Below are positions 26,012 through 48,683 of a stretch of 49,955 nucleotides of DNA, piece by piece. A model generated the notes under the pieces. It searched no databases. It saw only the letters and a program-made list of their open reading frames with translations, and was not told the DNA's origin. Numbering within the stretch: the stretch's first letter is position 1; every line of letters begins with the position of its first letter. The translations under genes and the position numbers were made by a program. Origin of the DNA: Candidatus Azotimanducaceae bacterium (GTDB taxonomy: Bacteria; Pseudomonadota; Gammaproteobacteria; Pseudomonadales; Azotimanducaceae); NCBI GenBank assembly GCA_047625245.1, contig JBLHQQ010000001.1:1-49955 (forward strand). Direction: 5' to 3'.

Positions 26012-26016
26012 TCCAA

Positions 26017-33011: not shown

Positions 33012-33012
33012 A

Positions 33013-34179
33013 CTATTGGGTCCTGACTTCTGGTTGATCAAAAAAAGACTTAATGGGATCTAGCACCATAGTCTCGAGTACTTTTCTAATCTGGCCGCTG
33101 GCATCGCCACGTCCATAGGGATTGGCGTATACCAGCTCATCATTGCGGAACGTTTCAGACAACCCAAGGCGGATAGAACGCACAATCGCATCTCTCTCGA
33201 CATCACAATGTATTACAGATGCCGCCGCAGCTCTGCCCTTTTGGCGGTTACCTACATTTATTGTTGGTACATGAAAGGATGGCGCCTCAATTATGCCACT
33301 GGAGGAGTTTCCAATGACCAGCCGGCAGTGTTTCATCGCACTCAAATACCTGACCTGGCCCAATGACGGTACACCAACCACACGTCCACCCGATGTCGCT
33401 ACATAATCATCAATTAACGCAATAATCTGCCGCCCACCTTCATCCGCATTAGGATAGGTAAAGACAATCTGATGGTCGCTAAAGCAATCAAGTGCTGTCA
33501 GTAGATGTCCAAAATCATCGATAGCACCACGCTTCGACATTGTTTCTGGATGATAAGTTATGAGGAAGAATGGACGGTCCAGCCTAAAACTAATTGAAGC
33601 TGACAATTCTTCCGATGACATGAGGGCAGTCTTGCTTACATGGTCCAACCCTGGAGCTCCGACATTCTTTACGCGATCAGGTTTTTCACCCATCTGTATT
33701 ACACGTCTTCGGTGCTCTTCAGTGGTGGTGCAATGATATGTACTCATTTTGGTAATAGAGTGTCTGATGGCATCGTCGTATGCTCCCTCGGTCAACTCAC
33801 CACCGTGGATGTGCAGAATGGGTATTTTGAGAATAAGTGCCGTTTGCGCTGCAGCCAATGCTTCAAATCTATCGCCGAGAATCACTAAAACATCAGGTGA
33901 TAGACGGCTAAAAGATTCGGCTAAACTAATAGTGGCTAATCCCATCGATTTCAAAACTCCGACGGGTGTGTCTGATGAGAGCAGAATTTCGCACTTTTCA
34001 TCAATGGCAAAACCATCGCTCTCAATTTGTTGATAAGTCAGGCCAAATTCAGGAGACAGATGAGAACCGGTCGCAACTATCTGCAAAGCCAGTGAATCAC
34101 TAGCCTGAATTTCCTTCAGCAGCCAGAACAGAAGACCATATTCAGCTCGAGTGCCAGTAAAAATCAGTATTCTTCGCAT
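33013..34179 (-). CDS. neuC/legG: hydrolysing NDP-HexNAc 2-epimerase (NeuC/LegG-type)
   Basis: 388 aa. MRRILIFTGTRAEYGLL and HIHGGE motifs of hydrolysing UDP-GlcNAc 2-epimerases. Confidence 0.9.
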   Translation of the reverse strand: MRRILIFTGTRAEYGLLFWLLKEIQASDSLALQIVATGSHLSPEFGLTYQQIESDGFAIDEKCEILLSSDTPVGVLKSMGLATISLAESFSRLSPDVLVILGDRFEALAAAQTALILKIPILHIHGGELTEGAYDDAIRHSITKMSTYHCTTTEEHRRRVIQMGEKPDRVKNVGAPGLDHVSKTALMSSEELSASISFRLDRPFFLITYHPETMSKRGAIDDFGHLLTALDCFSDHQIVFTYPNADEGGRQIIALIDDYVATSGGRVVGVPSLGQVRYLSAMKHCRLVIGNSSSGIIEAPSFHVPTINVGNRQKGRAAAASVIHCDVERDAIVRSIRLGLSETFRNDELVYANPYGRGDASGQIRKVLETMVLDPIKSFFDQPEVRTQ

Positions 34180-34183
34180 TCAG

Positions 34184-35329
34184 CTAAACTTCGACTGCGG
34201 TGCTGGGCAAATTAACAATTCGCTGTGCCAGCCATTCTGAATTATGAAGTTCACCTCGGAATGCATTGGCATACATCGGTAATGTGTGCATCAGGTTCCA
34301 AACAGGTCTTGTCATTACACCACTGTCGTTAGTTTCTTTCAGGAGGTTATTCCTAGCAGCAAAGTCCTTGCAGATAACAGCATTGAGCCAATAATTAGAG
34401 CGGCAATGCTCTGGTTCATCAACAAATGTATATTCTGAATCTACAAAAAATGCTCTATATGATGCCGCCAAATTGCGCTTTTGCGTAATTATCTCTGGCA
34501 ATCGCTCCAACTGCGCGCAGCCCAAGGCCGAATTCAAGTTGGGTAACCGATAGTTAAAGCCAGCCTCTTCATGATAGAACTCATAAGGATGCGGTTTCTT
34601 TGCGGTGGTAGTTATGTGCTTTGCCCTGACACCATCATCAACATCGGCACACAGAAGCATACCACCGCCTCCCGTTGTGATGATTTTATTACCATTGAAA
34701 CTCAAGGCTCCGTATCGAGACAAGGTGCCTGTGTGTTGCCCTTTATAATAGGACCCCAGGCTTTCAGCAGCATCCTCAATAAGTTCTATATGCCATTTAT
34801 CGCAAACCTGCTGCAACTCATCCATTTCAACCGGGTGGCCAAATGTATGCATAGGTAGCACCGCGGCGATTTTACATTTTGATACCTTATGTCGACAGAT
34901 ACCGTTTCCATCGATCTCGGCATTTGAGGCCAAATATTCATTAAGCGCAACCGGGCACAATCCAAGCGTTTTTCGGGATACATCAACAAATATAGGACTG
35001 ACCCCCATGTGAAACATAACATTACACGCCGCCACAAAGGTCATGGCCTGCGTGATCACATGATCGCCGACCTGTATTCCCGCAAGGTAAAGAGCTGCGT
35101 GTATAGCCGCCGTGCCATTAACTGTGGCAATTGCCTTTTTTGCACCCGTGAATTTTTCTATATTTTCCTCGAAACGGTTTACGTATTTACCAACGCTGGA
35201 AACGTAGGTGCTATCAATCGCCTCAATTAAATACTCTTTCTCCGCGCCTTTAAAAACCGGTTCGCACAGCGCGATAAACTCATCCGTGTGGTAGATCTGA
35301 CGAATAAATTTCACTAGTTTTTCTGTCAT
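34184..35329 (-). CDS. legC: DegT/DnrJ/EryC1-class PLP aminotransferase, LegC type
   Basis: 381 aa. LSFNGNKIITTGGGGML signature and DAAESLGS motif. Confidence 0.9.
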   Translation of the reverse strand: MTEKLVKFIRQIYHTDEFIALCEPVFKGAEKEYLIEAIDSTYVSSVGKYVNRFEENIEKFTGAKKAIATVNGTAAIHAALYLAGIQVGDHVITQAMTFVAACNVMFHMGVSPIFVDVSRKTLGLCPVALNEYLASNAEIDGNGICRHKVSKCKIAAVLPMHTFGHPVEMDELQQVCDKWHIELIEDAAESLGSYYKGQHTGTLSRYGALSFNGNKIITTGGGGMLLCADVDDGVRAKHITTTAKKPHPYEFYHEEAGFNYRLPNLNSALGCAQLERLPEIITQKRNLAASYRAFFVDSEYTFVDEPEHCRSNYWLNAVICKDFAARNNLLKETNDSGVMTRPVWNLMHTLPMYANAFRGELHNSEWLAQRIVNLPSTAVEV

Positions 35330-35458: not shown

Positions 35459-36301
35459 CTACCAGACCGAACGACCACCATCCATAACGATATTCTGGCC
35501 ATTCATATAAGCAGATGCGTCAGAGCAGAGAAACTGGACTATTGAATGATACTCATCAACATGCGCCATACGTTGCATAGGGATTAGCGAGGTAAGTTTA
35601 TCGACGAAATCCTGACCCTGATTGTTTTCTACTCCACCCGGGGACAATGCGTTACACCTAACATTTTGCTCGACCCAATAGGTGGACAGGTAGCGAGTCA
35701 GCCCAACAAGCCCAGCCTTGATGACTGAGTAGGTAACAGGTTTTACGGGTTGCATGTCAGCAGGTATACCCTCTTTTTGATACAGTCTTTGATCAGGTGA
35801 AATAACAGAAAGATCAGAGGCAATATTCAAAATGACGCCACCACGGCCGCTTGACGCCATAACAGCACCAAAGACCTGACTACAAAGAAAAGCCCCGGTT
35901 AATCCTACAGAAATTTGCATTTCCCATTGCTCCAATGAGAAATTTTCAAGCCGCGAGGACTCTACCATTGACGAACTTGCATCGACTTTCGGGTCAATCG
36001 CTGCGTTGTTGACAAGTATATCAACTACTAAACCGGCATCCTGCAAACTTTGCTGTACACCTCGGATGGAGGACAGCGAGGCGACATTCATCTCTTGGAT
36101 TTGAATGTTTTCTGGATTGAATTCCGATTCCAGCTGCTTTTTTGCAGCCAATAGCCGAGTAGAGTCAATATCCGTTAAAACAACTGCAGCGTCCAAGTGC
36201 AGCAAGGCTTTAGCGTGCTCCATACCTAATAGACCCGCTGCCCCTGTAATCAGAGCGGTTTTACCTTCGAGGCTGAATTTCTGCAAACTGTCATGTTTCA
36301 T
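35459..36301 (-). CDS. PtmA-like SDR oxidoreductase (second copy)
   Basis: 280 aa. ALITGAAGLLGMEHA and YSVIKAGL motifs. Same subfamily pattern as 27506-28276. Confidence 0.7.
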   Translation of the reverse strand: MKHDSLQKFSLEGKTALITGAAGLLGMEHAKALLHLDAAVVLTDIDSTRLLAAKKQLESEFNPENIQIQEMNVASLSSIRGVQQSLQDAGLVVDILVNNAAIDPKVDASSSMVESSRLENFSLEQWEMQISVGLTGAFLCSQVFGAVMASSGRGGVILNIASDLSVISPDQRLYQKEGIPADMQPVKPVTYSVIKAGLVGLTRYLSTYWVEQNVRCNALSPGGVENNQGQDFVDKLTSLIPMQRMAHVDEYHSIVQFLCSDASAYMNGQNIVMDGGRSVW

Positions 36302-36314
36302 AGTGTCATCTCAA

Positions 36315-37079
36315 TTAAGCACGGACTTGTCCGCCATCTACGGTCAAAATACTACCGGTTATAAAATTCGACAGGGGTGAGGCTAAAAATATGGCAGCTC
36401 TAGCTATTTGATCTGGGGATCCCAGCGAGGAGAGTGCCACTTCCTTTCCCAGCATCGTTTCGACGGCGGACCTATTTTCCGCCAGTTTTTTCTCCCAGAC
36501 AGATCCATCAAAGAGCATGTTACCTGGTGCGATACCGCAGATTCGAACCCCTCTTTTACCAAGCGGCCTGGCAATACCTTTGATATAGGCATTTAAAGCG
36601 GCTTTCGCGACCGAATAGGTTACTGGAGCTCCGGGAATGACTTCGTTACCACAGATAGATGAAATGCACAGTATGCAACCTTGATGCTTCTGCAGTTCTG
36701 GCACGGCATGCTCGACAGTGTTAGTTGTGCTCCACAAATTGACGCTGAAAACCCTCTGCCATTCGCCAAAATCTTCTTCTCCAGGAGGTACAGAACGGCC
36801 AGAGCCGACGTTACAAACGACAATATCGAGACCGCCCAATTGCCTAACAGCCTCTGCAATGACATATTTGGCACCCTGAACTGTAGAAACATCGCCAACA
36901 ACCCCAACACTACCCGGTATTGATAGAATCGCTGCCTGCACCCGTGCGGACTCTCTGCCGTTTACAGCAACTGAGCAGCCTTCACTAGCAAAGTGTTGTG
37001 CAATGGATTTACCAATACCGCCGGATGAACCCGTCACTAAGACATTTTTGCCTTGCAATTCAAGCAGCATGCTGTTCAA
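36315..37079 (-). CDS. classical SDR oxidoreductase
   Basis: 254 aa. VLVTGSSGGIGKSIA and YSVAKAAL motifs. Confidence 0.85.
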   Translation of the reverse strand: MNSMLLELQGKNVLVTGSSGGIGKSIAQHFASEGCSVAVNGRESARVQAAILSIPGSVGVVGDVSTVQGAKYVIAEAVRQLGGLDIVVCNVGSGRSVPPGEEDFGEWQRVFSVNLWSTTNTVEHAVPELQKHQGCILCISSICGNEVIPGAPVTYSVAKAALNAYIKGIARPLGKRGVRICGIAPGNMLFDGSVWEKKLAENRSAVETMLGKEVALSSLGSPDQIARAAIFLASPLSNFITGSILTVDGGQVRA

Positions 37080-37899
37080 GCCAACGCTCTACCATCTGCA
37101 GGTAGCCCTTCAATACAGCCTGATGATTCTCATCAGTCGCCCTGGCAGTCTGCAGGATATAATTCCCCTTGTAACCCGACCTCGCAAGTAAGCGAAATAC
37201 TAAATCGAATAAAGCTGCTCCGCTTCCAAGTGGCACAGTTGTTCCTCCAAGAATACGATCTTTAACGTGTACATTAATAATACGCGAACCATAGCAGGCA
37301 AACTCCTCATTCGGATCAAATCCCAAGGCCGCACTGTTACCTATATCGTAATTAACACCAAAAGATTCTGCGTCAAGCCTACCGATGAACCGAGCAAGGT
37401 CTTCAGCCTTAAAATCACTCTCGAAGGCTATTCGCACCTTGCTGCGTTGAAAATAACTGACTTGTTCGCTCAAGAAATTTACCAGATGATCTTCTTGTTC
37501 ACGTGTATCAAGCCTTCCAGCATCAACCAGCGGTACAACGATGAAGCCTATTTTTAATTTGGCACAGGCATCAACAATTGCGACAAAATCCAGTTTCAAT
37601 CGGGAAGCCTGCTCGACCGTTGCAGCCTTCCAAAACGGCGCCTGCATAAAACAATCACCGGTCAGTGATGGGATACTGACAGCGTGTTGCTTTACTAATG
37701 CCTCAATACTCGCCCGACCTGGGTGAGTCATAATGGGGTTTTGATAAAGGTCAGCTTGGTCGAGTGTCCACTCCATGGCCCCTATACCAATTGCCGCCGC
37801 CGACGCAAATTCGTTCTGCCAGTTGGCTGCCGGAAACGCTTGGATTTTTCCGTCAACTAGGGCCGATAGACGACCCTGCATAAACCCTACTAAGCTCAT
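37060..37899 (-). CDS. xylose-isomerase-like TIM-barrel protein, UlaE/SgbU-like ketose-phosphate 3-epimerase type
   Basis: 279 aa. FESDF, NYDIGNSAALG, VHVKD and VPLGSGAALFDLVFRLLARSGYKGNYILQ align with L-xylulose/L-ribulose-5-P 3-epimerase motifs. Confidence 0.7.
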   Translation of the reverse strand: MSLVGFMQGRLSALVDGKIQAFPAANWQNEFASAAAIGIGAMEWTLDQADLYQNPIMTHPGRASIEALVKQHAVSIPSLTGDCFMQAPFWKAATVEQASRLKLDFVAIVDACAKLKIGFIVVPLVDAGRLDTREQEDHLVNFLSEQVSYFQRSKVRIAFESDFKAEDLARFIGRLDAESFGVNYDIGNSAALGFDPNEEFACYGSRIINVHVKDRILGGTTVPLGSGAALFDLVFRLLARSGYKGNYILQTARATDENHQAVLKGYLQMVERWLEQHAA

Positions 37900-38652
37900 C
37901 TATATTCCTTTTGCGGACCACCCGCCATCAACAAACAAGTCGGTTCCTGTTACGTAGCCAGATGCATCTGACGCGAGGTAGATTGCAGCTCCACACAGGT
38001 CAGAGGATTCTCCCCAACGCTTAATCATCATTCGATCCAAACGTTGCTCATGGAGTATTGGGTCACTAAAACTGCCTTTTGTCATATCAGTTTTTATATA
38101 GCCTGGTGCCAGATTGTTGACTCTGATGCCTCGAACAGCAAAATCAAAAGCGAGCGCCTTGCTCAACATTCGCAAACCGCCTTTTGAGGCAACATACGCG
38201 GGGTTACCTGGAAAGCCTAAAACAGATCCGATGCTAGTCACATTAATGATGGACCCACTAGCGCTAAGACTCATTAGGTCAGCAGCCAACATACAACACC
38301 GGTGCGTAGCTGAAAGATTAGTATCCAGAGTCCTCATGAATTGCTCACTATCTGCCGGTTGACTCGCTACTGGCAGAGTAATGCCCGCGGCATTAACCAG
38401 CACATCAAGCTGCTGGCAAGTTGCTTTAATCTCCTCAAAGAGATCACTTAGCTCTTTGCTATCCGTTACGTCACATTGTATGTAGCGCCAGTTGTTAGCG
38501 GTTTGACTCTCAATACTGCGACCGACGCCGATAACCACGCCACCGGCAAGATGCATGGCATCGGCTATGGCTTGGCCTATACCACGAGATGCACCCGTTA
38601 CCAGACAAACCTTCCCGTCCAAAGAAAACAGATTTTCGATATAGCTGCTCAT
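37900..38652 (-). CDS. classical SDR oxidoreductase (KduD/gluconate-5-dehydrogenase-like)
   Basis: 250 aa. VCLVTGASRGIGQAIA and YVASKGGL motifs. Confidence 0.85.
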   Translation of the reverse strand: MSSYIENLFSLDGKVCLVTGASRGIGQAIADAMHLAGGVVIGVGRSIESQTANNWRYIQCDVTDSKELSDLFEEIKATCQQLDVLVNAAGITLPVASQPADSEQFMRTLDTNLSATHRCCMLAADLMSLSASGSIINVTSIGSVLGFPGNPAYVASKGGLRMLSKALAFDFAVRGIRVNNLAPGYIKTDMTKGSFSDPILHEQRLDRMMIKRWGESSDLCGAAIYLASDASGYVTGTDLFVDGGWSAKGI

Positions 38653-39335
38653 TTGTTTAACTCGTAGCCCTTTATTATGGCCTCAATAAGGGCTATGTCC
38701 TCAAAGGTGTCTACTTGGTACATTTTATGGCGAGCCAGTTCAAACATACCAATTTTCCCACCCAGACGATTGTTAGTCTCACGCAACAAAGTTGGTGTAA
38801 ACACATAAAAAGAGCCATTTTCAAGATAGCTCGGTTGAATTTCCTGCCTGCGTTTTCGACTTTTAAAGTCGTAGTTGACTGACTCCAGCCCCTGAGCAGA
38901 TTTCCGCCAAACAAAATAGTCTTCCACTAACGTCACACTCAACAACGAGTCGTATCCACCAGATTTGAATTTCTCCAGAGCCCCTTTCAAGTCACTAGAT
39001 TCACGCACCGGTGAGGTTGCTTGCATCCCAACCAGAACACTGACATCTACGCCTGAAGATTCGATCTGGTTAAGCGCATCAATCCACGCGGACTCGGACG
39101 TCGCTAAATCACCGGCAATCTCGGCGGACCGCACTAGCGGGGATGCCCCATATTCTTCCGCAACACTCAAGATCTCATCACTGTCAGAGGTAACCCAGAC
39201 CGAATCGATACCGTCACACTTAAGTGCCTGTTCGATAGACCAGGCAATCAAGGGTTTACCCAGCATCGGATAGATATTTTTTCGAGGGATTCCTTTAGAA
39301 CCACCTCGTGCTGGAATTATTGCCACAGTGCTCAT
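38649..39335 (-). CDS. NeuA/KdsB-family cytidylyltransferase (CMP-ulosonic acid synthetase type)
   Basis: 228 aa. VAIIPARGGSKGIPRKNI and MQATSPVR motifs. Confidence 0.85.
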   Translation of the reverse strand: MSTVAIIPARGGSKGIPRKNIYPMLGKPLIAWSIEQALKCDGIDSVWVTSDSDEILSVAEEYGASPLVRSAEIAGDLATSESAWIDALNQIESSGVDVSVLVGMQATSPVRESSDLKGALEKFKSGGYDSLLSVTLVEDYFVWRKSAQGLESVNYDFKSRKRRQEIQPSYLENGSFYVFTPTLLRETNNRLGGKIGMFELARHKMYQVDTFEDIALIEAIIKGYELNK

Positions 39336-39337
39336 TA

Positions 39338-39943
39338 TTAGGAAACCTTAGCGTGCTGTGGAAAGTACAATCGTTCGACCATGCCACAGACGATATGGCC
39401 AATCAGTATATGACTTTCCTGAATTCTGGCAGTATCGCTCGAGGGGACACAGATACAACTTGCCAAAGACTTAAGTTTTCCTCCGCTCGCACCAGTTAAT
39501 ATCACTACAGGAACATCAAGCTCGCTTGCCGCGGCAACAGCATTAACTATATTTAAGCTATTACCACTCGTACTAATCGCTACAAAAATATCTTCTGGCT
39601 TAGCAATAGCCTGAATCTCTCGCGCGAAAGTCTGGTCATATCCGTAGTCATTACCAATAGCGCTCATAGCCGATGAGTTTGTTCCCAGTGCAATTGACGC
39701 GAGGGCCGGACGATCAAACAGGAATCTGGACGTGAACTCGGCAGAGAGATGTTGCGCATCTGCAAAACTTCCACCATTACCCGCAAATATTACCTTGCCG
39801 CCATTTTTTAAGCTGGCAAGGCACGCCTCGGCGAGGGCATGAATTTGACCAATGATACTGGCATCTGCTTTAAGTAGCTGTTTTACACTGATTGACTCAT
39901 CAATTTCAGCAACGATGCTCTGCAATACTTTGTTATCTGTCAT
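39338..39943 (-). CDS. gmhA: D-sedoheptulose-7-phosphate isomerase-like SIS protein
   Basis: 201 aa. VIFAGNGGSFADAQHLSAEF, AIGNDYGYDQTFAREI, ISTSGNS and ARIQESHILIGH, close to canonical GmhA motifs. Confidence 0.85.
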   Translation of the reverse strand: MTDNKVLQSIVAEIDESISVKQLLKADASIIGQIHALAEACLASLKNGGKVIFAGNGGSFADAQHLSAEFTSRFLFDRPALASIALGTNSSAMSAIGNDYGYDQTFAREIQAIAKPEDIFVAISTSGNSLNIVNAVAAASELDVPVVILTGASGGKLKSLASCICVPSSDTARIQESHILIGHIVCGMVERLYFPQHAKVS

Positions 39944-41826
39944 AACGTTCCTTCTAGTTTATCCAGGGCCACCCAGAAGCCTTCGCCACCGTTTTTATGC
40001 CCTTGCCATATTTCCGGAATAAAGGATGCAGACGGGCACCCATCCTTCAAAATACTCCCCAATTTATCGAAATCAATATCACCTTCACCCACCTGCAAAC
40101 CCTCGCCATTAACACCTGAAGCATCACCAATATGCAGATGCCCAGTAAAAGGCGCGACCTTTCTAGCGAATTCATAAAAGTCCGCATCGAAATGGTTGCA
40201 GGTCAATCGAGTATGTGACACGTCGAAACACATTCTTAAATTTAGTCGTTCACACCATGTGACAATCTCGTCAACATGAACAAACAGGTTCTGGTATCTT
40301 TGTCCTCCAAAATGCCAAGGAAAGGGCGCCATGGTCTGTGGAATCAACTCTGCGCCTTCAATATCGAGTTTAGACAAGCTATCTTCAAACCTTTCGTAAT
40401 ACCCTTGAATTTCACTAGATGGCAAAAGAGCATCCATCGTGAACCCGCCAATGTTCGCGACAATCATTGGTCGTTTTGTTGATGGGAAAAATCGTTTCAG
40501 AGACCTTGTGATATCAATAACTCTCTGTGTTTCTACAATCGAATAGTTTCGATAACTCTCATCAGGAGAGGCAAGATCCATCAAGCGACTACCTGAAAAA
40601 AGTTCCGGGGCGTGAACGACAAAGTCGCAATCGTATGTGCCTGTTAGGTACTCATCGATATTTAAGTCTAGATCCGTGTAGGAGAGATGGAATTCATAAA
40701 GGTCCGCCTTCACTCGCTCTTCGAACTGTTTGAAATCATGATATCGAACTGGAACACCCCAAGGCCGGTTGAAACCGAACGCCCTCGGTTCAACCCGACT
40801 ATCTTGTAGGTCTGAGGGATAGAAATAGTCCTCGGTCTCCATATCGCGACCAACAGTCATTCCAATCAATTGTTCATAATATTGGGCCGACAAGCCCTGC
40901 CCAGGACTCAACACCTTGAGATGCTCCGGCGCTATCGTAGTACCTTTAGCGAGGTTAGTTGAGGCAACCAGACTTTTCGCCAGATTCTCTCGATTTATCA
41001 TTTCACCTTGAGATATCCGCCGCGAAAGCCCGTCGCCTAATGCTTGTTCGATTTCTCGAATACCTTCCACCATTAAGCCAAACTCAGAAACCTCCAGGCT
41101 CGCAGCATGATCGGGGCCCTCCATTTGGCGGTCGAGGGTAAAGTGCCTTTCAACGACTATTACACCAAGCGCGACAGCTGCCAACGAAACAGCTGTTCCG
41201 CGTTCGTGACCTGAATAGCCAACCAATGGGTGAATGTCTCTGAGTTTAGTTAACCATTTGAGGTTTATATCTTGCAAAGGCGCGGGGTAGGTACTGTTGC
41301 AGTGCAGAAGTACAAAACTGCTTTCACGCTTGGTCAGGAACTCTACTGTAAAGGCAACCTCAGCCGGTGTGCTCATCCCAGTTGAAAGTATGAGAGGTTT
41401 GTTGGTCGCTGACAATCGATCCAACAGTGGCATATTCGTTAAATCAGCTGAAGCAACTTTATAGGCTGGGACGCCAAAATCCTCAAGAATATCAACACTT
41501 CGGTTATCCCAGGGGGTGCAGAGATACAAGATGTCATTATCAGCACAATAAGTCGCTAACTCCCGCTGCTCCTCCACGGACAACTCAAATCTTTCCAGTA
41601 GATCAAGAACATATTCGGTACCGAGATCCTCCCCGTCACGCCGCAATGACTTAGCTCGGTAGACATCTTTAAGATGCCGCATCTGGAATTTGACACAGTC
41701 CGCACCGGCCCTTTTCGCCTCACCTACCATATGCTTGGCACGTTCAAGGCTGCCGTTGTGATTGTTGCCTATTTCAGCAATCACAAATGTACGGCTACTA
41801 CCGATTTCGAATTTTCCAATATGCAT
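39940..41826 (-). CDS. NeuB-SAF ulosonic-acid synthase fused to a C-terminal xylose-isomerase-like TIM-barrel domain
   Basis: Start taken at MHIGKFEIG (AGGTGA 7 nt upstream; the ORF extension to 41898 would overlap the upstream gene). Roughly residues 1-290 are NeuB (IAEIGNNHNGS, HCNSTYPAP, GYSGHE, DH). A SAF domain follows. Roughly residues 370-628 are TIM-barrel (VVHAPE, FDVSH, HLHIGD, IPEIW). Confidence 0.85.
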   Translation of the reverse strand: MHIGKFEIGSSRTFVIAEIGNNHNGSLERAKHMVGEAKRAGADCVKFQMRHLKDVYRAKSLRRDGEDLGTEYVLDLLERFELSVEEQRELATYCADNDILYLCTPWDNRSVDILEDFGVPAYKVASADLTNMPLLDRLSATNKPLILSTGMSTPAEVAFTVEFLTKRESSFVLLHCNSTYPAPLQDINLKWLTKLRDIHPLVGYSGHERGTAVSLAAVALGVIVVERHFTLDRQMEGPDHAASLEVSEFGLMVEGIREIEQALGDGLSRRISQGEMINRENLAKSLVASTNLAKGTTIAPEHLKVLSPGQGLSAQYYEQLIGMTVGRDMETEDYFYPSDLQDSRVEPRAFGFNRPWGVPVRYHDFKQFEERVKADLYEFHLSYTDLDLNIDEYLTGTYDCDFVVHAPELFSGSRLMDLASPDESYRNYSIVETQRVIDITRSLKRFFPSTKRPMIVANIGGFTMDALLPSSEIQGYYERFEDSLSKLDIEGAELIPQTMAPFPWHFGGQRYQNLFVHVDEIVTWCERLNLRMCFDVSHTRLTCNHFDADFYEFARKVAPFTGHLHIGDASGVNGEGLQVGEGDIDFDKLGSILKDGCPSASFIPEIWQGHKNGGEGFWVALDKLEGTL

Positions 41827-41848
41827 ATTCACTTCACCTAAGTTCAAT

Positions 41849-43216
41849 TTAGTTGACCTGTTCTCGCACAGTCCAGGCACGCAGGCCATCTTGATCAAAG
41901 CGGAATGGCCTTACTGTTTTACCAGTTGCCTGCAAATGTTGCACCAGTTCGTGCTTTCGAAATGCAGATGCATAAAACAGGAAGAATCCGCCGCCCCCAG
42001 CGCCCAGCAACTTTCCGCCGATCGCGCCATTTTCTTTTGCTGCATCATAGATTCTGTCGAGATTTGGCGATGAGATTTTTTGACTGAATTCCCTCTTCAG
42101 ATTCCAAGCTTCGTCAAGGGCCAAACCGAATTCTGGCAGCCTGCCTCGTAACAAGTGATCCCTGATTTTATCCGTAAGCTCAACGTTAGCAATCATATGG
42201 GCTCGAACATCTGCATTTTTCATTCTATCCCGTTGATCCTGGTGAATGTCATGAGAACTATGATCGAGACCTGTGTCACAAAGCACCAGGCTCTCTTCTA
42301 GTTCGAGCAACAGGTCGGCATTGATTCTTAATGGATGTATTCGGTTTTGATCCATTCTGAATTCCATGAAATTAAATCCACCAAACACACTGGCATACTG
42401 ATCCTGCCAGCCACCAGCAACGCCCATGTATATCCTTTCGGCTTGATAAGCTAATTCGGCAATTTCATGAGAGTCCCATTTATCACTTCTAAACTGATTG
42501 AAGCATCCGAGGATGGTAGCTGCCACAACAGAGGAGCCGCCAAGCCCGGAGTTCATAGGGAAGTCCGAATTCAAATATAGTTCAAATCCAAAATCTGGAT
42601 GTATGGTCTTAAGTAAGGCCTGAACTAAAGCGAAAACGCTATCGGCGCGCAAAGCCTCCGCAAGATTGTCAGCTTCAAGAGAACAACCCAAATCTAGTGA
42701 GTGGAGGACAATTTTCTCGTCATCTCTCTTCTTGAGTGTCGCATGACTATAAATGGAAATAGTCGCATTAATTACCGCGCCTCTCTCGCTATTAAAAAAG
42801 TGGGTCAGATCAGATCCCCCGCCCCCGAAACTAACTCTGACAGGCGCTCTCGCCCTTGCATAGACCCTACCTTCATTACTAACGGGGAAGTGATCCCGAC
42901 TAACGATGCCCTGCAATTTTCGCTCATCGTCTAGAAGTGGTATTACGCGAATTTTATGATCGAGTCGTTTCATCAAAAATTCTCGCGAAACGAGGGGACT
43001 CTCCCACACAAACTCTTCATTGGTGCACAATGAGATCATATCATCTAGAGACCCCCCGTTCAGCAGCCTTCTGCGTATATCGCCATCAGTAGCCAGCCCG
43101 ACCACCTCTCCGGTAGCTAAAGTAGTCAGTATAATCCCATGGTGATTTCGCTCAATCAGCTTAAGCGCATCTCTGAGCGACGAGTGTTGGGCAATAAGAA
43201 AATTTTCTAAATTCAT
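41849..43216 (-). CDS. hddA: CBS-pair + GHMP anomeric sugar kinase (HddA/fucokinase-like)
   Basis: 455 aa. CBS pair (GLATDGDIRRRLL), then RAPVRVSFGGGGSD, PMNSGLGGSSVVAA, GGWQDQY and GAGGGGF motifs typical of D-glycero-D-manno-heptose-7-P kinase. Confidence 0.8.
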   Translation of the reverse strand: MNLENFLIAQHSSLRDALKLIERNHHGIILTTLATGEVVGLATDGDIRRRLLNGGSLDDMISLCTNEEFVWESPLVSREFLMKRLDHKIRVIPLLDDERKLQGIVSRDHFPVSNEGRVYARARAPVRVSFGGGGSDLTHFFNSERGAVINATISIYSHATLKKRDDEKIVLHSLDLGCSLEADNLAEALRADSVFALVQALLKTIHPDFGFELYLNSDFPMNSGLGGSSVVAATILGCFNQFRSDKWDSHEIAELAYQAERIYMGVAGGWQDQYASVFGGFNFMEFRMDQNRIHPLRINADLLLELEESLVLCDTGLDHSSHDIHQDQRDRMKNADVRAHMIANVELTDKIRDHLLRGRLPEFGLALDEAWNLKREFSQKISSPNLDRIYDAAKENGAIGGKLLGAGGGGFFLFYASAFRKHELVQHLQATGKTVRPFRFDQDGLRAWTVREQVN

Positions 43217-43920
43217 AACTCACCTTTCCGACCGCTCTCGATCCATTGACAGAATTTGTGATAATCATCAGGTATACCGATATCAATGAAACTGGTATCG
43301 AGAGTAATTGCTTTGAGTAACCGCTTGTTTACCAACTCAACCAATGTGCGATTTTCCAGAGAAAAGGGATGCCCATCCCAATTTGAAAAATACTCAGTGT
43401 TCAACCGGCAAATACCAGAGTTGATCCAACCAGGCCTCCGTTTCTCGGACTTTTCAGAAAAACGTGTTATTAACATTCTCTCGTCAAATTCAATTTGGCC
43501 ATAGCGACTAGTATCTGGCACTTCTAATACGCCGACAGCAGGCCCTTTGGAGGACGAGATTATTTTGTAGCCATTGCCAAGCCAGGTATCAGCGTTGACC
43601 AGTAAAAAGTCACCCGTTAACGACAACTCAGAAACTGCAAAAGCGACCGCGCCCCCAGTGTTAAGAGGAGTGGTCTCTATGACATATCTCACCTCACAGC
43701 CATTTAGAAGCGTGGATTCGTACTTATGCAAGAAAGCTAGAATCAGGTCCGCTCGGTATCCGAGTAAAAAAACAAATGACTTTGCCCCTTGCTCGATCCA
43801 CGCCTCCAGTTGAAGGTGGAGAAACGGAACGCCTCCTATCGGAGCAAGGGCCTTGGGTACATCACTGACCACTGACTTCAACCTGCTGCCTACGCCACCC
43901 GCGAGCACTAAGATTTTCAT
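43213..43920 (-). CDS. hddC: sugar-1-phosphate nucleotidyltransferase (HddC-like)
   Basis: 235 aa. MKILVLAGGVGSRLKS..PKALAPIGG motif. 4-nt overlap with the kinase gene. Confidence 0.8.
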   Translation of the reverse strand: MKILVLAGGVGSRLKSVVSDVPKALAPIGGVPFLHLQLEAWIEQGAKSFVFLLGYRADLILAFLHKYESTLLNGCEVRYVIETTPLNTGGAVAFAVSELSLTGDFLLVNADTWLGNGYKIISSSKGPAVGVLEVPDTSRYGQIEFDERMLITRFSEKSEKRRPGWINSGICRLNTEYFSNWDGHPFSLENRTLVELVNKRLLKAITLDTSFIDIGIPDDYHKFCQWIESGRKGEL

Positions 43921-43951
43921 CTATTTATCATTCCTACTGTCCCGTTAACAT

Positions 43952-44840
43952 TCATATCAACGTCATCTGATAGATATTCATTTGATCATGACGTAAAGAA
44001 TCACGTCGCAGCAAAGCCATCAAGTCTCGTTTATCAAAGAAATTAAGCTGTAGTAGGCGTAACATCAGCCGCATGCGTTTAGTTAACTTGGACTGGGGTT
44101 TAGAAGGGCCCTCAGCAGATAGACACATGGGGCAACCCATATCAGGGTCATCACCAAATCTTTATTGGTGCCAACAAACAATCTTATCCTCAGGTTTTGC
44201 TTGATCCACTTGAAGAACAATTCGACCTGCTATCTAGCTTTGTAAATGTCAGCGATGGTGCGTGCTGATAGCGTAAAGTTATTTGACAGAACGGTGTAGC
44301 GCTTGCCTGTTTCAACATTTTTGTAACCGATACGTCGCAACTGAACGAGGTATTTCTTGGCGTATAAGAACCGTGCACTCGATGGTATGGACACAGGTCA
44401 AACCCTTATTTTTCAACACAGGGTGGCGAAGAACAATTCTATGTTTGGCGTTTGACTTGAGCCGTGTCACAAAGAATCTTCTTCTTTCAGTCAAATGGTT
44501 ATACCTACCATAGTCGTTCTAGCGCTTGTCAATCGCTACCATGCTCCCCCTGGCGAAATTCAGTGAACGCCGAACGGTAATAACGGCTGCCTTGCCGTCT
44601 GTTGTCGCCACGAACTCGGGCGGGTAGCCGTCATGACTAAGCTCGATATCGAGCTTTACCGCGCCCCTGTGTTACTCGGAATTTGGCCAAGGGGGAAAAC
44701 CGACAAACATAGATCGACGGAGTCACGGGCTGAAACCATCGGGATGCAGTAGAAATACGAAGTCCACTCGGGTGTTGTTTTGCTAGAGTCTCAAATTCAT
44801 GTCTCTGCACTAGCTTTAGGAGTTGAGAAAGCATCGTCAT
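43952..44840 (-). pseudogene. IS4-family (DUF4372 + DDE_Tnp_1 type) transposase, frameshifted, nonsense-mutated and internally shortened
   Basis: Fragments in three frames: LSQLLKLVQRHEFETLAKQH (N-terminus), FFVTRLKSNAKHRIV, and RIGYKNVETGKRYTVLSNNFTLSARTIADIYKAR*QVELFFKWIKQNL, where TAG replaces the conserved Trp. Candidate terminal inverted repeats at 43928-43948 and 44938-44955. Confidence 0.75.
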
Positions 44841-45490
44841 ATTAGGTGCCGTCGCTTGGTTTTCTTTTTTCTCAAGGACTTGTTGTGATTTTATCGTAAC
44901 AAAACAGAGAGTTTTCTAGACCTCTTTATTTGGCATTTAACTGGACGGTAATGAGCGCTTGACTTGGTTAACCGGCTATCCTAATTCATTAATTCAGCTA
45001 AGTAGTACTTCGTTTTGGACTCACGCATCCCCAACGCAAGGCAGGCTGGCTGGCTGGAAAAGACCTTGTTGATTTCCGTAATCAAATATCGAAGAAATCA
45101 TCAGAAATAGTGATCAGAGGGCTACGCCCAAAATTTAGTACAGCACAATAAGAGATTAAACGCTTCAGTATTGGCATCGTTGATGTCGTAGATAAAAGAA
45201 GAAATTATCAAAAGTCCTCGTAGGAATTACTCATTTGTGCTCAAAGCTCAGGTGCAGACTCGTGCGCAGACCTTATCATGACTGGTGGTTGGCTGGTTGA
45301 GCCTCAAGTTCATGCCAAGCGATGATTGACCGTTATGATCAACTGCCTGTGGGCAAGGTTTATCCCAAAAAAGGGCCGCTCACTGAATTGTCCACTGAGA
45401 GCAGGCAAGAACCTATCGTCACCATGGACTATTGGTGAGCCAGCAGGCAACGCTGTAGTGCATCGATCAATTGCATCGACAGGCGCTTAA

Positions 45491-45511
45491 CTGGCCAATC
45501 CAGTTGGCCAG
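45491..45511 (-). terminator. weak hairpin downstream of wzz
   Basis: ctggccaa / ttggccag 8-bp stem with a 5-nt loop, 27 nt after the wzz stop. Only UU follows on the transcript. Confidence 0.3.
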
Positions 45512-46566: not shown

Positions 46567-46900
46567 ATGATGTCACGCCACCGGCAACGAACAGCGCCTG
46601 CATGACAGTAGATAGTGCCGAAACTGAGTAACTCCATGGCACCAGTACTTCGCCTGCCATAAAAATGCCTATAAACCGCAATCGCCCCATGGAGACGATT
46701 GTTTCTACACCAATCCACTGCTACTCATCCGAGCTGAATCAGCGTCTTGGCATCTTCAAAGGTTAATCCCGCAAGCACCACCGACCGAGTGTGGGATTAT
46801 TTATCTCGCCGTTGCGATCAATCTGCAGTGTGTTGCTCGCTTTCTTTGCCGTGAAAACTTGTCTGCAGTTCATCACCAGCACCGAAGATAGGCAGTATAA
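46510..46900 (-). pseudogene. wza: wza/otnA-like polysaccharide export protein remnant (frameshifted, truncated)
   Basis: Minus-strand fragments in different frames: PIFGAGDELQ.., IDRNGEINNPTLGR / VLAGLTFEDAKTLIQL (Poly_export motif), and GEVLVPWSYSVSALSTVMQALFVAGGVTSYGS (SLBB motif). The total is far shorter than an intact gene. Confidence 0.65.
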
Positions 46901-48461: not shown

Positions 48462-48683
48462 GGATTGGTCATCTTGCCAAAAATTGAGTTTCTTGCCATC
48501 AGGGGAGCGCGCTATCTGTTCACCCGTTGAACAACACTACTGCAACTCGCCCCAAATTAAAAGCTGCGCCTTGATTTACCTTGCGCTTGGGGTTCCTTTT
48601 TGTAGGCGCTCATGAAAACCATAATTTCCCCGAGCATCTCAGTGACATGCACTAAGACGGCCGACTGTTTAGCGACATGCCCC

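What the first reader, a model, noticed from the sequence alone, without database searches (positions are those of the whole stretch)
35459..43920. Module A: ulosonic-acid synthase and CMP-activation core wired to heptose-type genes, a candidate undescribed pathway
Nine consecutive, translationally coupled genes encode, in order: an HddC-like nucleotidyltransferase, a CBS-HddA-like anomeric kinase, a NeuB-SAF-TIM fusion, a GmhA-like isomerase, a NeuA/KdsB-type cytidylyltransferase, a KduD-like SDR, a UlaE/SgbU-like ketose-phosphate 3-epimerase-type TIM protein, and two more SDRs. The synthase plus cytidylyltransferase core is the hallmark of nonulosonic-acid pathways. The module, however, has no 4,6-dehydratase, aminotransferase, N-acyltransferase or hydrolysing 2-epimerase of its own. 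Those enzymes feed the characterised Neu5Ac, Leg, Pse and related routes. The partners here are instead families that turn sedoheptulose-7-P into manno-configured heptose phosphates and NDP-heptose. My inference is that PEP is condensed with a non-aminated manno-type aldose or aldose phosphate. That would give a Kdn-like acid or, if D-glycero-D-manno-heptose-7-P is the acceptor, a 10-carbon 3-deoxy-ulosonic acid, then tailored by the redox and epimerase enzymes and CMP-activated. I cannot match this gene set to any described pathway from memory.
Basis: partly seen in the sequence, partly recalled or inferred. Interest (0 to 1): 0.88.

Follow-up and report, generated by a model that had tools for sequence, protein, structure and literature searches.

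The report
Kdn-type sugar-acid operon with heptose genes
Nine intact genes form one copy of a widespread, uncharacterised bacterial cassette that most likely builds and CMP-activates a sialic-acid-like sugar lacking amino groups, possibly a ten-carbon one made from a heptose, a sugar class so far seen only as unexplained mass-spectrometry signals.

Summary
Nine same-strand, overlapping or nearly abutting genes (43920..35459, minus strand) carry the stated domains.

The cassette is common. The NeuB-SAF-TIM fusion occurs in 569 species-representative genomes. In relatives its neighbours are:
- an HddA-like kinase (70/70 loci);
- an HddC-like nucleotidyltransferase (60/70);
- a GmhA-like isomerase (41/58);
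- a cytidylyltransferase (at least 51/58);
- an ElaC/PtmA-like reductase (57/58).

A NeuC-type hydrolase is near only 4/82 loci, so the module does not depend on the adjacent legionaminic-acid module.

All TIM-fused NeuBs keep the catalytic residues but replace E134, F288 and the essential R314 of ManNAc-type synthases.

A longer form, CBS-NeuB-SAF-TIM, sits beside only a cytidylyltransferase. The same domain architecture is required for Kdn capsule in Serratia marcescens (PMC9000132). So the fusion itself is partly known and is Kdn-type.

The heptose-wired nine-gene version was not found in the literature I could search. My best reading (about 0.45) is a heptose-derived ten-carbon Kdn homologue, CMP-activated and then epimerised. 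The main rival (about 0.3) is a nine-carbon Kdn-type acid plus a separate GDP-heptose. The roles of the kinase and of the fused TIM barrel are unresolved.

The parts
43213..43920 (-). A1: sugar-1-phosphate nucleotidyltransferase, HddC-like (235 aa)
   Evidence: PF00483, 66.8 bits. The best NCBIfam hit is HddC (NF049965, 129.7 bits, cut-off 300). Present upstream of the fusion in 60/70 related loci.
41849..43216 (-). A2: CBS pair (about 43195..42887) fused to a GHMP anomeric sugar kinase, HddA/WcbL-like (about 42859..41867); 455 aa
   Evidence: PF00571, PF00288 and PF08544 hit. HddA model NF049969 scores 249 bits (cut-off 600). PDB 4n3o, 3k85 and 4usk match at E 1e-59 to 1e-53. The WcbL catalytic Arg and Asp motifs are kept. 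The kinase is adjacent to the fusion in 70/70 loci, most often with a 4-nt overlap.
39940..41832 (-). A3: NeuB (about 41730..41029), SAF (about 40977..40807) and xylose-isomerase-like TIM barrel (40776..39943); 630 aa from the ATG at 41832
   Evidence: PF03102 274 bits, PF08666, PF01261. TIGR03569 scores 333.6 against a cut-off of 399.65; PseI scores 244.9 against 340. Catalytic, metal and PEP residues are kept, but E134D, F288N and R314S are changed. The AlphaFold model of the TIM domain matches ketose 3-epimerases, UlaE and YcjR, with Endo IV scoring weaker. Found in 569 species genomes.
39338..39943 (-). A4: SIS-domain ketose-phosphate isomerase, GmhA-like (201 aa)
   Evidence: PF13580. GmhA models score 190.3 (cut-off 276) and 169.9 (cut-off 209). 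Present in 41/58 related loci.
38649..39335 (-). A5: CMP-ulosonic-acid synthetase-type cytidylyltransferase (228 aa)
   Evidence: PF02348, 91.5 bits. PseF model scores 129.7 (cut-off 205.7); KdsB subfamilies score weaker. A CTP_transf_3 gene of one of three subfamilies is present in at least 51/58 loci.
37900..38652 (-). A6: classical SDR occupying the variable slot (250 aa)
   Evidence: adh_short_C2, 185 bits, with only generic SDR equivalog hits. An A6-like gene is present in only 4/58 loci. In 43/58 loci this slot holds an aminotransferase, usually with VOC and methyltransferase genes.
37060..37899 (-). A7: stand-alone xylose-isomerase-like TIM barrel, keto-sugar epimerase-like (279 aa)
   Evidence: PF01261, 81 bits. 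L-ribulose-5-P 3-epimerase models score 48 bits, far below cut-off. PDB UlaE 3cqh matches at E 1e-8. It is not detectably similar to the A3 TIM domain by BLASTP. A TIM gene is present in 45/58 loci.
36315..37079 (-). A8: classical SDR, candidate oxidising partner (254 aa, TTG start)
   Evidence: adh_short_C2, 157.8 bits. Conserved as cluster c6 in 42/58 loci; replaced by a Gfo/Idh/MocA oxidoreductase in other variants.
35459..36301 (-). A9: classical SDR of the PRK09186/PtmA/ElaC-like type, candidate terminal keto-reductase (280 aa)
   Evidence: Best NCBIfam hit is NF006619, 159.8 bits (cut-off 255); the PtmA model scores 101 bits. This is the same model that the window's own ElaC-like gene passes with 306 bits. 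An A9-like gene at 40% identity or more is present in 57/58 loci.

Best explanation
Module A is this genome's copy of a horizontally spread cassette. It makes a CMP-activated, non-aminated (Kdn-type) 3-deoxy-2-ulosonic acid for the surface polysaccharide, independently of the neighbouring legionaminic-acid module.

Proposed steps:
1. A4 (GmhA-like) isomerises sedoheptulose-7-P to a D-glycero-D-manno-type heptose-7-P.
2. A2 (HddA-like, with a regulatory CBS pair) phosphorylates O-1.
3. A GmhB-type phosphatase removes the 7-phosphate. This gene is absent from the window and is encoded just upstream of A1 in a third of relatives.
4. A1 (HddC-like) forms the NDP-heptose, the one-carbon homologue of GDP-mannose.
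5. The fused TIM barrel of A3 prepares the free aldose, either by releasing it from the nucleotide or by epimerising or dephosphorylating it.
6. The NeuB-SAF part of A3 condenses the aldose with PEP. This gives a ten-carbon homologue of Kdn (C10H18O10).
7. A5 makes the CMP-sugar.
8. A8 oxidises one hydroxyl, A7 inverts the neighbouring centre, and A9 (and A6) reduce the ketone, as ElaA/ElaC do on CMP-legionaminic acid.

What is shown: the domain content, the conservation of the cassette, the altered NeuB acceptor site, and the independence from NeuC/LegB/LegC-type genes.

What is inferred: every substrate, the order of steps, the ten-carbon length, and above all the function of the fused TIM barrel.
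For: - Domains and family relations.
- Cassette conservation in 80 genome loci from many phyla. Counts are kinase 70/70, NTP-transferase 60/70, GmhB-like 24/70, SIS 41/58, cytidylyltransferase at least 51/58, A9-like SDR 57/58.
- The GmhB-like protein in relatives passes TIGR00213. All seven Leptospira loci carry the full HAD-NTP-kinase-fusion-SIS set.
- GmhA and WcbL catalytic motifs are intact.
- The heptose-type genes are interleaved with the ulosonic-acid genes (A1-A2-[A3]-A4-[A5]), with 4-nt overlaps.
- Distant short-form fusions (41-47% identity) still have an HddA-like kinase. One also has an NTP-transferase-like gene directly upstream.
- The CBS pair sits on the kinase in the short form and on NeuB itself in the long form. 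This fits both being the regulated entry step of one pathway.
- All TIM-fused NeuBs share E134D and loss of R314, with small or polar residues at 288. That fits a hydroxyl rather than an N-acetyl group on the acceptor.
- The long form plus a cytidylyltransferase alone forms a module in five independent contexts. A gene of the same domain architecture is required for Kdn capsule in S. marcescens (PMC9000132).
- D-glycero-D-manno-heptose is mannose extended by one carbon (established chemistry).
- The tail resembles ElaA/ElaB/ElaC: a cytidylyltransferase, an oxidoreductase and a PRK09186-type SDR. Variants replace A8 and A7 by Gfo/Idh/MocA enzymes.
- Higher-carbon CMP-ulosonic acids have been seen by mass spectrometry with no genes assigned.
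Against: - NeuB needs a free aldehyde, and an anomeric kinase blocks it. No NeuC/LegG/PseG-type NDP-sugar hydrolase is in the cassette (4/82 loci).
- No AP_endonuc_2 enzyme is known to do that job. Foldseek places the fused TIM nearest to ketose 3-epimerases, and the model has a mean pLDDT of only 69.
- The two-gene long-form modules show that NeuB-TIM plus a cytidylyltransferase can work without any heptose gene. The heptose genes could therefore serve a second sugar.
- 10/70 loci lack a nearby NTP-transferase and 17/58 lack the SIS gene.
- No GmhB-type gene is in the window.
- All equivalog cut-offs are missed, so the substrates could be homologues of heptose.
- The only reported C10 acids (M. 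gryphiswaldense) are di-N-acetylated and only +CH2 over the Leg/Pse marker. They do not match the predicted polyhydroxy product.
- The many loci descend from one spreading cassette, so they are not independent evidence.
Confidence: 0.45

Rival explanations
1. The cassette supplies two separate donors. A3 and A5 (tailored by A6-A9) make a CMP-activated nine-carbon Kdn-type acid from mannose, Man-6-P or GDP-mannose, exactly as the two-gene long-form modules do. [quoted passage not shown] That heptose is transferred as a neighbouring residue of a conserved glycan unit.
For: - Long-form CBS-NeuB-SAF-TIM plus cytidylyltransferase modules lack all heptose genes, and this architecture is tied to Kdn in S. 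marcescens.
- The TIM-domain invariant residues are identical in long and short forms, and the NeuB acceptor-site signature is shared. Both argue for the same chemistry and a similar acceptor.
- GmhA, HddA, GmhB and HddC together are the textbook GDP-heptose route, and that route needs no further enzyme.
- No NDP-sugar hydrolase is present.
- A GT2 gene and other glycosyltransferases in the window could transfer heptose.
Against: - Genes of the two supposed pathways are interleaved and overlap, rather than being grouped by sugar as is usual.
- The kinase is adjacent to every short-form fusion, including ones at 41-47% identity.
- The CBS regulatory pair moves between NeuB and the kinase.
- 10/70 loci keep the kinase without a nearby NTP-transferase. 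That would be pointless for making an NDP-heptose unless the gene lies elsewhere.
Confidence: 0.3
2. The GmhA/HddA/HddC-like enzymes act on a homologue other than sedoheptulose-7-P: a hexulose or octulose phosphate, as LmbN/LmbP/LmbK/LmbO do for the lincomycin octose. Alternatively the kinase acts on the ulosonic acid itself. The product would then be a nine- or eleven-carbon, or a phosphorylated, Kdn-type acid rather than a ten-carbon one.
For: - All four heptose-type proteins score well below their equivalog cut-offs.
- The kinase in L093 scores only 77 bits on the HddA model.
- GHMP kinases phosphorylate many non-anomeric hydroxyls (hits to mevalonate, homoserine, shikimate and pantoate kinase models).
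- The lincomycin octose precedent comes from my own knowledge and was not tested here.
Against: - The GmhA active-site motifs are completely conserved in A4.
- The SIS and GmhB-like genes are dispensable in many proteobacterial loci yet always present in Leptospira. This fits isofunctionality with housekeeping GmhA and GmhB.
- The best hits of A1, A2, A4 and the HAD protein are all the heptose enzymes.
Confidence: 0.12
3. Module A is an accessory of the adjacent legionaminic-acid module. A1, A4 and A9 would play the parts of PtmE, PtmF and PtmA and feed GDP-GlcNAc, and A3/A5 would be redundant copies of LegI/LegF.
For: - The C. jejuni ptm locus has the same families: a nucleotidyltransferase, a SIS isomerase, a PtmA-type SDR, NeuB and a cytidylyltransferase (my knowledge of Schoenhofen et al. 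2009).
- A9 hits the PtmA model weakly.
- The two modules are adjacent on one strand.
Against: - Module B already has its own CBS-nucleotidyltransferase, NeuC, NeuB, cytidylyltransferase and PtmA/ElaC-type SDR.
- The cassette occurs without NeuC in 78/82 loci. Close LegC relatives (at least 48% identity) are near only four loci.
- The A3 acceptor site lacks R314 and F288.
- The A3 NeuB domain is only 40% identical to the window's LegI, against 59-72% within its own family.
Confidence: 0.03

Closest known systems
Serratia marcescens KL1/KL2 capsule genes neuA and neuB (Kdn-containing capsule; Anderson et al. 2022, PMC9000132)
   Same: - The NeuB family domain is fused to a COG1082/AP_endonuc_2 'sugar phosphate isomerase/epimerase' domain and paired with a CMP-transferase.
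- It lies in a Wzx/Wzy polysaccharide locus.
- Long-form representatives are 33-49% identical to the A3 NeuB-SAF region and share its acceptor-site signature (D134, no R314) and its TIM invariants.
   Different: - The Serratia gene is the long form: a 2241-bp ORF, presumably with the N-terminal CBS pair.
- It needs only neuA beside it. It has no HddA/HddC/GmhA-like genes and no TIM/SDR tail.
- I did not compare the Serratia sequence itself. The match is by domain architecture and gene order.
- The function of its extra domain is also unknown.
[quoted passage not shown]
   Same: A4, A2 and A1 have these enzymes as best hits, with catalytic motifs intact. A GmhB-family phosphatase sits upstream of A1 in 24/70 relatives.
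   Different: - All window proteins score below the equivalog cut-offs.
- The kinase carries an extra CBS pair.
- No GmhB is in the window.
- The genes are interleaved with a PEP-condensing synthase and a cytidylyltransferase, which is not known for any heptose locus.
CMP-legionaminic acid pathway of Campylobacter jejuni (PtmE/PtmF/PtmA, LegB/C/H/G/I/F)
   Same: The logic is a dedicated NDP-sugar precursor branch followed by NeuB-type condensation and CMP activation. The nucleotidyltransferase, SIS, SDR, NeuB and CTP_transf_3 families are shared.
   Different: There is no 4,6-dehydratase, DegT aminotransferase, acetyltransferase or hydrolysing 2-epimerase. A GHMP kinase replaces the mutase. 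The acceptor site is of the non-N-acetyl type.
ElaA/ElaB/ElaC CMP-Leg5,7Ac2 8-epimerase of Acinetobacter baumannii KL49 (PMC13656337), and YcjS/YcjR-type oxidise-epimerise chemistry
   Same: A cytidylyltransferase is followed by an oxidoreductase and a PRK09186-type SDR. Some cassette variants use a Gfo/Idh/MocA enzyme like ElaA. A TIM-barrel keto-sugar epimerase (as YcjR, PDB 6wn6) fits A7.
   Different: A9 misses the NF006619 cut-off (159.8 against 255). The oxidase here is an SDR. An extra TIM epimerase and a third SDR are present. No activity has been tested.
Kdn-9-P and Kdo logic (sugar-phosphate isomerase, PEP-condensing synthase, HAD phosphatase, CMP-synthetase; for example KdsD/KdsA/KdsC/KdsB and the Bacteroides Kdn-9-P route)
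   Same: The product is non-aminated. A SIS isomerase and CBS domains occur, as in KdsD/KpsF (the A2 CBS pair hits the kpsF model). A CTP_transf_3 enzyme does the activation.
   Different: The synthase is NeuB-type, not KdsA-type. The HAD enzyme in relatives is GmhB-family, not KdsC-family. An anomeric kinase and a nucleotidyltransferase have no place in that logic.

Membership tests
NeuB/LegI N-acetylneuraminate (legionaminate) synthase, TIGR03569 | Score at or above the curated equivalog cut-off (399.65 bits) | tested here: not met
   A3 scores 333.6 bits. The window's own LegI scores 479.2.
NeuB/LegI N-acetylneuraminate (legionaminate) synthase, TIGR03569 | Catalytic, metal and PEP residues (N. 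meningitidis numbering: E25, K53, Q55, T110, K129, S132, S154, Y186, S213, H215, E234, H236, D247) | tested here: met
   All are conserved in A3 and in every TIM-fused relative.
NeuB/LegI N-acetylneuraminate (legionaminate) synthase, TIGR03569 | Acceptor-site residues E134, F288 (or another hydrophobic residue) and R314 contributed by the SAF domain | tested here: not met
   A3 has D, N and S at these positions, invariant in the 59-78% identity sub-family. R314 is absent from all 71 TIM-fused representatives. It is present in NmNeuB, PseI, the window's LegI and nearly all stand-alone NeuBs in the loci.
PseI pseudaminic acid synthase, TIGR03586 | Score at or above the cut-off (340.25 bits) | tested here: not met
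   244.9 bits.
TIM-fused Kdn-type NeuB (S. marcescens NeuB-like) | NeuB + SAF + AP_endonuc_2/COG1082 in one polypeptide, next to a CTP_transf_3 gene | tested here: met
   The architecture is described for S. marcescens in PMC9000132.
TIM-fused Kdn-type NeuB (S. marcescens NeuB-like) | Product is Kdn (nine carbons, no amino group) | not testable with these tools
   This needs chemistry. It is also not shown biochemically for the Serratia enzyme, only by deletion and sugar analysis.
TIM-fused Kdn-type NeuB (S. marcescens NeuB-like) | Self-sufficient two-gene module with an N-terminal CBS pair on the synthase | tested here: not met
   A3 lacks CBS, which sits on the upstream kinase. A3 is always accompanied by an HddA-like kinase.
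[quoted passage not shown] | GmhA: equivalog score and catalytic residues (S55, E65, R69, D94, S119-S124, Q172, H180) | tested here: inconclusive
   Scores are 190.3 against 276 and 169.9 against 209.45, so below cut-off.
[quoted passage not shown] | HddA: equivalog score; catalytic Arg and Asp of WcbL | tested here: inconclusive
   249.4 bits against 600. PDB HddA/WcbL match at E 1e-59. The motifs RVSFGGGGSD and GGWQDQ are present (residues from PMC4691232).
[quoted passage not shown] | GmhB 7-phosphatase present | tested here: not met
   No GmhB/HAD homologue is found in the window by tblastn. It is present in 24/70 related loci and there passes TIGR00213, 163.9 against 149.6.
[quoted passage not shown] | HddC: equivalog score; GTP specificity | tested here: not met
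   129.7 bits against 300. Nucleotide specificity cannot be tested here.
Kdo pathway (KdsD/KdsA/KdsC/KdsB) | KdsA-type (DAHP_synth_1) synthase and KdsB equivalog | tested here: not met
   The synthase is NeuB-type. A5 hits KdsB models at 28-58 bits against cut-offs of 155-281.
ElaABC-type CMP-nonulosonate side-chain epimerase | PRK09186 (NF006619) SDR at or above 255 bits, next to a cytidylyltransferase and a Gfo/Idh/MocA oxidase | tested here: not met
   A9 scores 159.8 bits and module A has no Gfo/Idh/MocA gene. The window's module B trio does meet the criterion, with 306 bits.
Ketose 3-epimerase (D-tagatose/D-psicose 3-epimerase, UlaE) | E-D-H-E metal site with two catalytic glutamates | tested here: inconclusive
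   Best Foldseek hits for the A3 TIM are these enzymes (E about 1e-8, TM about 0.57), but on a model with pLDDT 69. D537, H540, H567 and E607 are invariant, but the expected first Glu (E495) is kept in only 24/72 relatives. Extra invariant residues are E380, H382, D387, H407, D570, E577 and H612.

The most novel reading that the evidence does not exclude
The cassette makes a ten-carbon, CMP-activated 3-deoxy-ulosonic acid ('homo-Kdn') from GDP-D-glycero-D-manno-heptose. The TIM barrel fused to NeuB would be a new kind of NDP-sugar-releasing enzyme. It would do for GDP-mannose (long form, giving Kdn) and for GDP-heptose (short form, giving the C10 acid) what NeuC, LegG and PseG do in the amino-sugar routes. 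This would give a genetic basis for 'higher-carbon' ulosonic acids in hundreds of environmental species.
Probability: 0.25. Interest if true: 0.9.

Novelty: new variant of a known kind. Interest (0 to 1): 0.72.

Why it matters
Ulosonic acids (Kdo, sialic, legionaminic and pseudaminic acids) cap bacterial surfaces. They govern recognition by phages, the immune system and lectins. All characterised routes give eight or nine carbons.

This work defines a very large, uncharacterised branch of the NeuB family, with 860 clusters at 50% identity. It has its own acceptor-site signature and an obligatory fused TIM barrel. One form of it, in 569 species-representative genomes, is hard-wired to heptose-type genes.

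If the product is a ten-carbon acid, this is the first gene set for a sugar class so far seen only as unexplained mass-spectrometry signals. If it is a modified Kdn, it still explains how many marine, freshwater and soil bacteria, Leptospira and actinobacteria make deaminated sialic acids. It also gives a function to test for the extra domain of the Serratia virulence-associated NeuB. Either way the enzymes are directly testable and useful for chemo-enzymatic synthesis.

Tried and rejected
- **Literature.** Eight full-text searches found no description of the nine-gene set. Searches for ten-carbon sugar names gave only noise. The large NeuB phylogeny paper and the Vibrionaceae nab paper do not mention the fusion.
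- **Link to the Magnetospirillum gryphiswaldense C10 acids**. I did not adopt this as support. Those acids are di-N-acetylated and only +CH2 over the Leg/Pse marker.
- **Module A as a PtmE/PtmF/PtmA-type feeder for the Leg module.** Rejected on neighbourhood statistics.
- **The A3 TIM domain as a paralogue of A7.** No similarity by BLASTP.
- **Full-length A3 model against the PDB.** Only the NeuB domain scored, so the TIM domain had to be modelled alone.
- **Profile of the TIM domain against PDB sequences.** Only MJ1311 matched, at 8.7e-6.
- **Serratia among long-form relatives.** Cluster look-up and a second homologue search did not surface it. The tie to Serratia rests on domain architecture only.
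- **Acinetaminic-acid genes.** The protein families of AciA, AciC and AciD could not be retrieved.
- **Operon signals.** An RfaH ops element (GGCGGTAG) was not found upstream of the operon; the single hit is at chance level. Promoter and terminator scans were uninformative.

Full report

Yes. Between 43920 and 35459 the minus strand carries nine ORFs with no opposing genes. Pfam and NCBIfam give the following:

| Gene | Coordinates | Domains and best hits |
|---|---|---|
| A1 | 43920..43213 | NTP_transferase; best hit HddC |
| A2 | 43216..41849 | CBS pair + GHMP kinase; best hit HddA; PDB HddA/WcbL E 1e-59 to 1e-53 |
| A3 | 41832..39940 | NeuB + SAF + AP_endonuc_2 TIM barrel |
| A4 | 39943..39338 | SIS_2; best hit GmhA |
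| A5 | 39335..38649 | CTP_transf_3 |
| A6 | 38652..37900 | classical SDR |
| A7 | 37899..37060 | AP_endonuc_2 TIM; nearest PDB UlaE |
| A8 | 37079..36315 | classical SDR |
| A9 | 36301..35459 | classical SDR |

Every curated equivalog cut-off is missed, so the enzyme names are resemblances, not assignments. A3 most likely starts at the ATG at 41832 (630 aa), the length of virtually all homologues. The gene junctions are -4, +16, -4, +2, -4, 0, -20 and +13 nt. Consensus promoter and terminator hits inside the block are at background level. All nine proteins align end to end with homologues, so the module is intact.

**2. Surroundings**

Downstream on the same strand lies a complete legionaminic-acid-type module. 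It contains:
- a LegC aminotransferase, NeuC and NeuB/LegI;
- a formyltransferase and a CBS-nucleotidyltransferase;
- a Gfo/Idh/MocA enzyme, a cytidylyltransferase and a PRK09186 SDR, which together resemble ElaA/ElaB/ElaC;
- HisH/HisF-type and WbuX amidotransferases.

The window therefore holds two NeuB genes and three cytidylyltransferase-like genes. Upstream of A1 are insertion-sequence debris, Wzz, a MarR-type regulator and RfaH. The locus is a Wzx/Wzy surface-polysaccharide cluster.

**3. How common is the cassette?**

The A3 fusion hits thousands of proteins at 71-78% identity. It also hits 569 species-representative genomes across Pseudomonadota, Bacteroidota, Leptospira, Cyanobium, Chlorobium, Nitrospinota, Planctomycetota and SAR86. 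I clustered the ORFs of 82 loci. The cassette consists of:
- [GmhB-family HAD, 24/70 loci];
- HddC-like transferase (60/70);
- CBS-HddA-like kinase (70/70, most often with a 4-nt overlap onto the fusion);
- NeuB-SAF-TIM;
- GmhA-like SIS (41/58);
- cytidylyltransferase of one of three subfamilies (at least 51/58);
- a variable slot;
- TIM (45/58);
- SDR (42/58);
- PRK09186-type SDR (57/58).

In 43/58 loci the variable slot holds an aminotransferase of class III, class IV or the DegT family, often with a VOC/glyoxalase protein and a methyltransferase. The window's variant, with SDR A6 in that slot, is rare (4/58).

NeuC-like genes are near only 4/82 loci, and close LegC relatives (at least 48% identity) are near four. 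The cassette therefore works without the NDP-hexosamine enzymes. That removes the idea that module A merely feeds the Leg module.

All seven Leptospira loci carry the full HAD-transferase-kinase-fusion-SIS set. Many Burkholderiales loci lack the HAD or SIS gene. This is what would be expected if those two genes are isofunctional with housekeeping GmhB and GmhA. That reading is an inference.

**4. The heptose-type proteins**

A2 keeps the catalytic Arg and Asp motifs defined for WcbL. The HAD protein of relatives passes the GmhB subfamily model. The window itself has no such phosphatase. Insertion-sequence debris sits exactly where relatives carry it. Whether the gene was lost through that insertion is speculation.

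**5. The NeuB domain**

The A3 NeuB domain is 59-72% identical within its sub-family. It is only 40% identical to the window's LegI and about 31% to N. meningitidis NeuB and C. jejuni PseI. All catalytic, metal and PEP residues are kept. Three acceptor-site positions are changed and invariant: E134D, F288N and R314S. R314 is the SAF-domain arginine whose mutants were crystallised as PDB 4ipi and 4ipj. It is present in NeuB, PseI, LegI and almost all stand-alone NeuBs in the loci. By the curated HMM thresholds and by this signature, A3 does not nest in a characterised Neu/Leg/Pse clade.

**6. The wider family, and the key outside evidence**

I searched the TIM domain against 1.84 billion representative proteins. 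It gave 860 clusters, almost all of them C-terminal domains of either ~620-640 aa or ~730-770 aa proteins. The long form is CBS-NeuB-SAF-TIM.

All 71 fused representatives, down to 33% identity, share D134 and lack R314. Their TIM domains share the same invariant residues: E380, H382, D387, H407, D537, H540, H567, D570, E577, E607 and H612.

The long form sits beside a cytidylyltransferase and nothing else pathway-specific in five independent contexts. One of these belongs to a protein cluster that includes Actinomyces graevenitzii.

[quoted passage not shown] Those capsules contain Kdn, with Kdn:Neu5Ac about 20:1. Deleting neuB abolishes both sialic acid and capsule (PMC9000132). So the TIM-fused NeuB branch is tied genetically to a non-aminated nonulosonic acid. 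That agrees with the loss of the residues that hold the N-acetyl group. I did not compare the Serratia sequence itself.

Distant short forms (41-47% identity) again have an HddA-like kinase immediately upstream. One also has a nucleotidyltransferase-like gene there. The kinase association is therefore old, not just a property of one recently spread cassette.

**7. The fused TIM barrel**

AlphaFold models have moderate confidence (pLDDT 76 for the full protein, 69 for the domain). Foldseek places the domain nearest to ketose 3-epimerases, UlaE and the 3-keto-glucoside 4-epimerase YcjR, with endonuclease IV weaker. By sequence, only MJ1311 in the PDB is detectable.

The canonical first catalytic Glu of ketose 3-epimerases (E495 here) is not conserved (24/72). 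A His-rich invariant set is conserved instead. I therefore cannot decide between three roles: an epimerase or isomerase that prepares the acceptor, a hydrolase that frees it from a nucleotide or phosphate, or a phosphatase acting on the product. The invariants are the same in long and short forms, so the chemistry should be the same in both.

**8. Most likely mechanism**

Shown:
- the gene content;
- conservation of the cassette;
- independence from amino-sugar enzymes;
- a Kdn-type acceptor signature;
- a CMP-transferase.

Inferred:
- Sedoheptulose-7-P is converted by A4, A2, a GmhB and A1 to an NDP-D-glycero-D-manno-type heptose.
- The A3 TIM domain delivers the free aldose.
- NeuB-SAF condenses the aldose with PEP to give a ten-carbon Kdn homologue.
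- A5 makes the CMP-sugar.
- A8, A7, A9 and A6 oxidise, epimerise and reduce it, as ElaA/ElaC do for CMP-legionaminic acid. In relatives, aminotransferases intercept the keto intermediate.

Arguments for one integrated pathway:
- The heptose-type and ulosonic-acid genes are interleaved and overlap.
- The kinase is universally adjacent to the fusion.
- The CBS pair migrates between NeuB (long form) and the kinase (short form).
- GDP-heptose is the one-carbon homologue of ubiquitous GDP-mannose. That would explain why the Kdn-type long form needs no extra genes while the short form always brings a kinase and a transferase.

I put this reading at about 0.45.

**9. Rivals**

The strongest rival (about 0.3) is that NeuB-TIM makes an ordinary nine-carbon Kdn-type acid, as in the two-gene modules, and that the heptose genes supply a second donor. 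It is favoured by three points:
- the two-gene modules are self-sufficient;
- the active-site signatures are identical in long and short forms;
- no known enzyme is present to unblock an anomerically activated heptose.

A third possibility (about 0.12) is a different chain length or a phosphorylated product, because all equivalog thresholds are missed. Feeding of the Leg module and pseudogenisation are each unlikely (at most 0.03).

**10. Novelty and literature**

I found no paper describing the nine-gene set or the short-form cassette. The fusion protein itself was noticed in Serratia in 2022, with no function assigned to the extra domain.

Mass-spectrometric hints of higher-carbon ulosonic acids exist, with no genes assigned (Kleikamp 2020, PMC8157484; the SugarBase preprint of 2026). 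The best-described example is a di-N-acetylated species that does not match the product predicted here. I therefore treat those reports as context, not as support.

My verdict is a new variant of a known kind: a CMP-ulosonic-acid pathway of the Kdn branch. It defines a large untested enzyme family and makes the question of ten-carbon ulosonic acids directly testable.

Noticed in passing
window 23601..35329 (minus strand): A complete legionaminic-acid-type module. It has LegC (TIGR04181, 510 bits), NeuC, NeuB/LegI, a formyltransferase and a CBS-nucleotidyltransferase. A Gfo/Idh/MocA enzyme, a cytidylyltransferase and a PRK09186 SDR (306 bits, above the 255 cut-off) look like ElaA/ElaB/ElaC. It also has HisH/HisF (WbuZ) and two WbuX amidotransferases. 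This predicts an 8-epi-legionaminic-type acid with N-formyl and acetamidino groups.
   Followed up: partly
window 15797..20631 (minus strand): A third cytidylyltransferase, fused to a cupin domain (17483..18622). It is flanked by a Gfo/Idh/MocA oxidoreductase, a D-2-hydroxyacid dehydrogenase, an SDR and a DUF4862 protein. This may be a third activated-acid or acyl-substituent module. None of these genes recurs in the related loci.
   Followed up: no
window 8101..12173 (minus strand): A 3-dehydroquinate-synthase-like (sugar-phosphate cyclase family) gene at 8101..9192, an SDR at 9170..9880 and a second GmhA-like SIS gene at 11571..12173 sit inside the polysaccharide locus. This is an unusual combination for an O-antigen or capsule cluster.
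   Followed up: no
window 43950..45500, 46562..46861 and 49642..49938: Insertion-sequence debris lies directly upstream of A1: a DUF4372 fragment and frame-shifted transposase pieces. This is the position where a third of relatives encode GmhB. There is also a truncated polysaccharide-export (Wza-like) remnant and an IS66 fragment at the window's end.
   Followed up: partly
loci L083-L087, L091, L092: CBS-NeuB-SAF-TIM proteins of about 750 aa form a two-gene module with a cytidylyltransferase in capsule or O-antigen loci of marine gammaproteobacteria and of Actinomyces. The S. marcescens Kdn capsule genes have the same architecture. The family is very large: more than 7000 of the 8000 scored candidates have E <= 1e-50.
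   Followed up: partly
loci L056, L068, L070 and 11 others (cluster c15); window 20612..23451: A LIC12162-family transferase (TIGR04331, 513 bits) follows the cassette in 14 loci and may be its glycosyltransferase. The window instead has a KpsS/Capsule_synth-type protein (20612..21994) and a TIGR04396 protein (22066..23451) between the ulosonic-acid modules.
   Followed up: no
window 48108..49178, and loci with clusters c16 and c20: An RfaH paralogue and a small MarR/HTH_24 regulator precede the locus. The same pair recurs upstream of the cassette in several unrelated genomes, which suggests that the regulators travel with the gene cluster.
   Followed up: no
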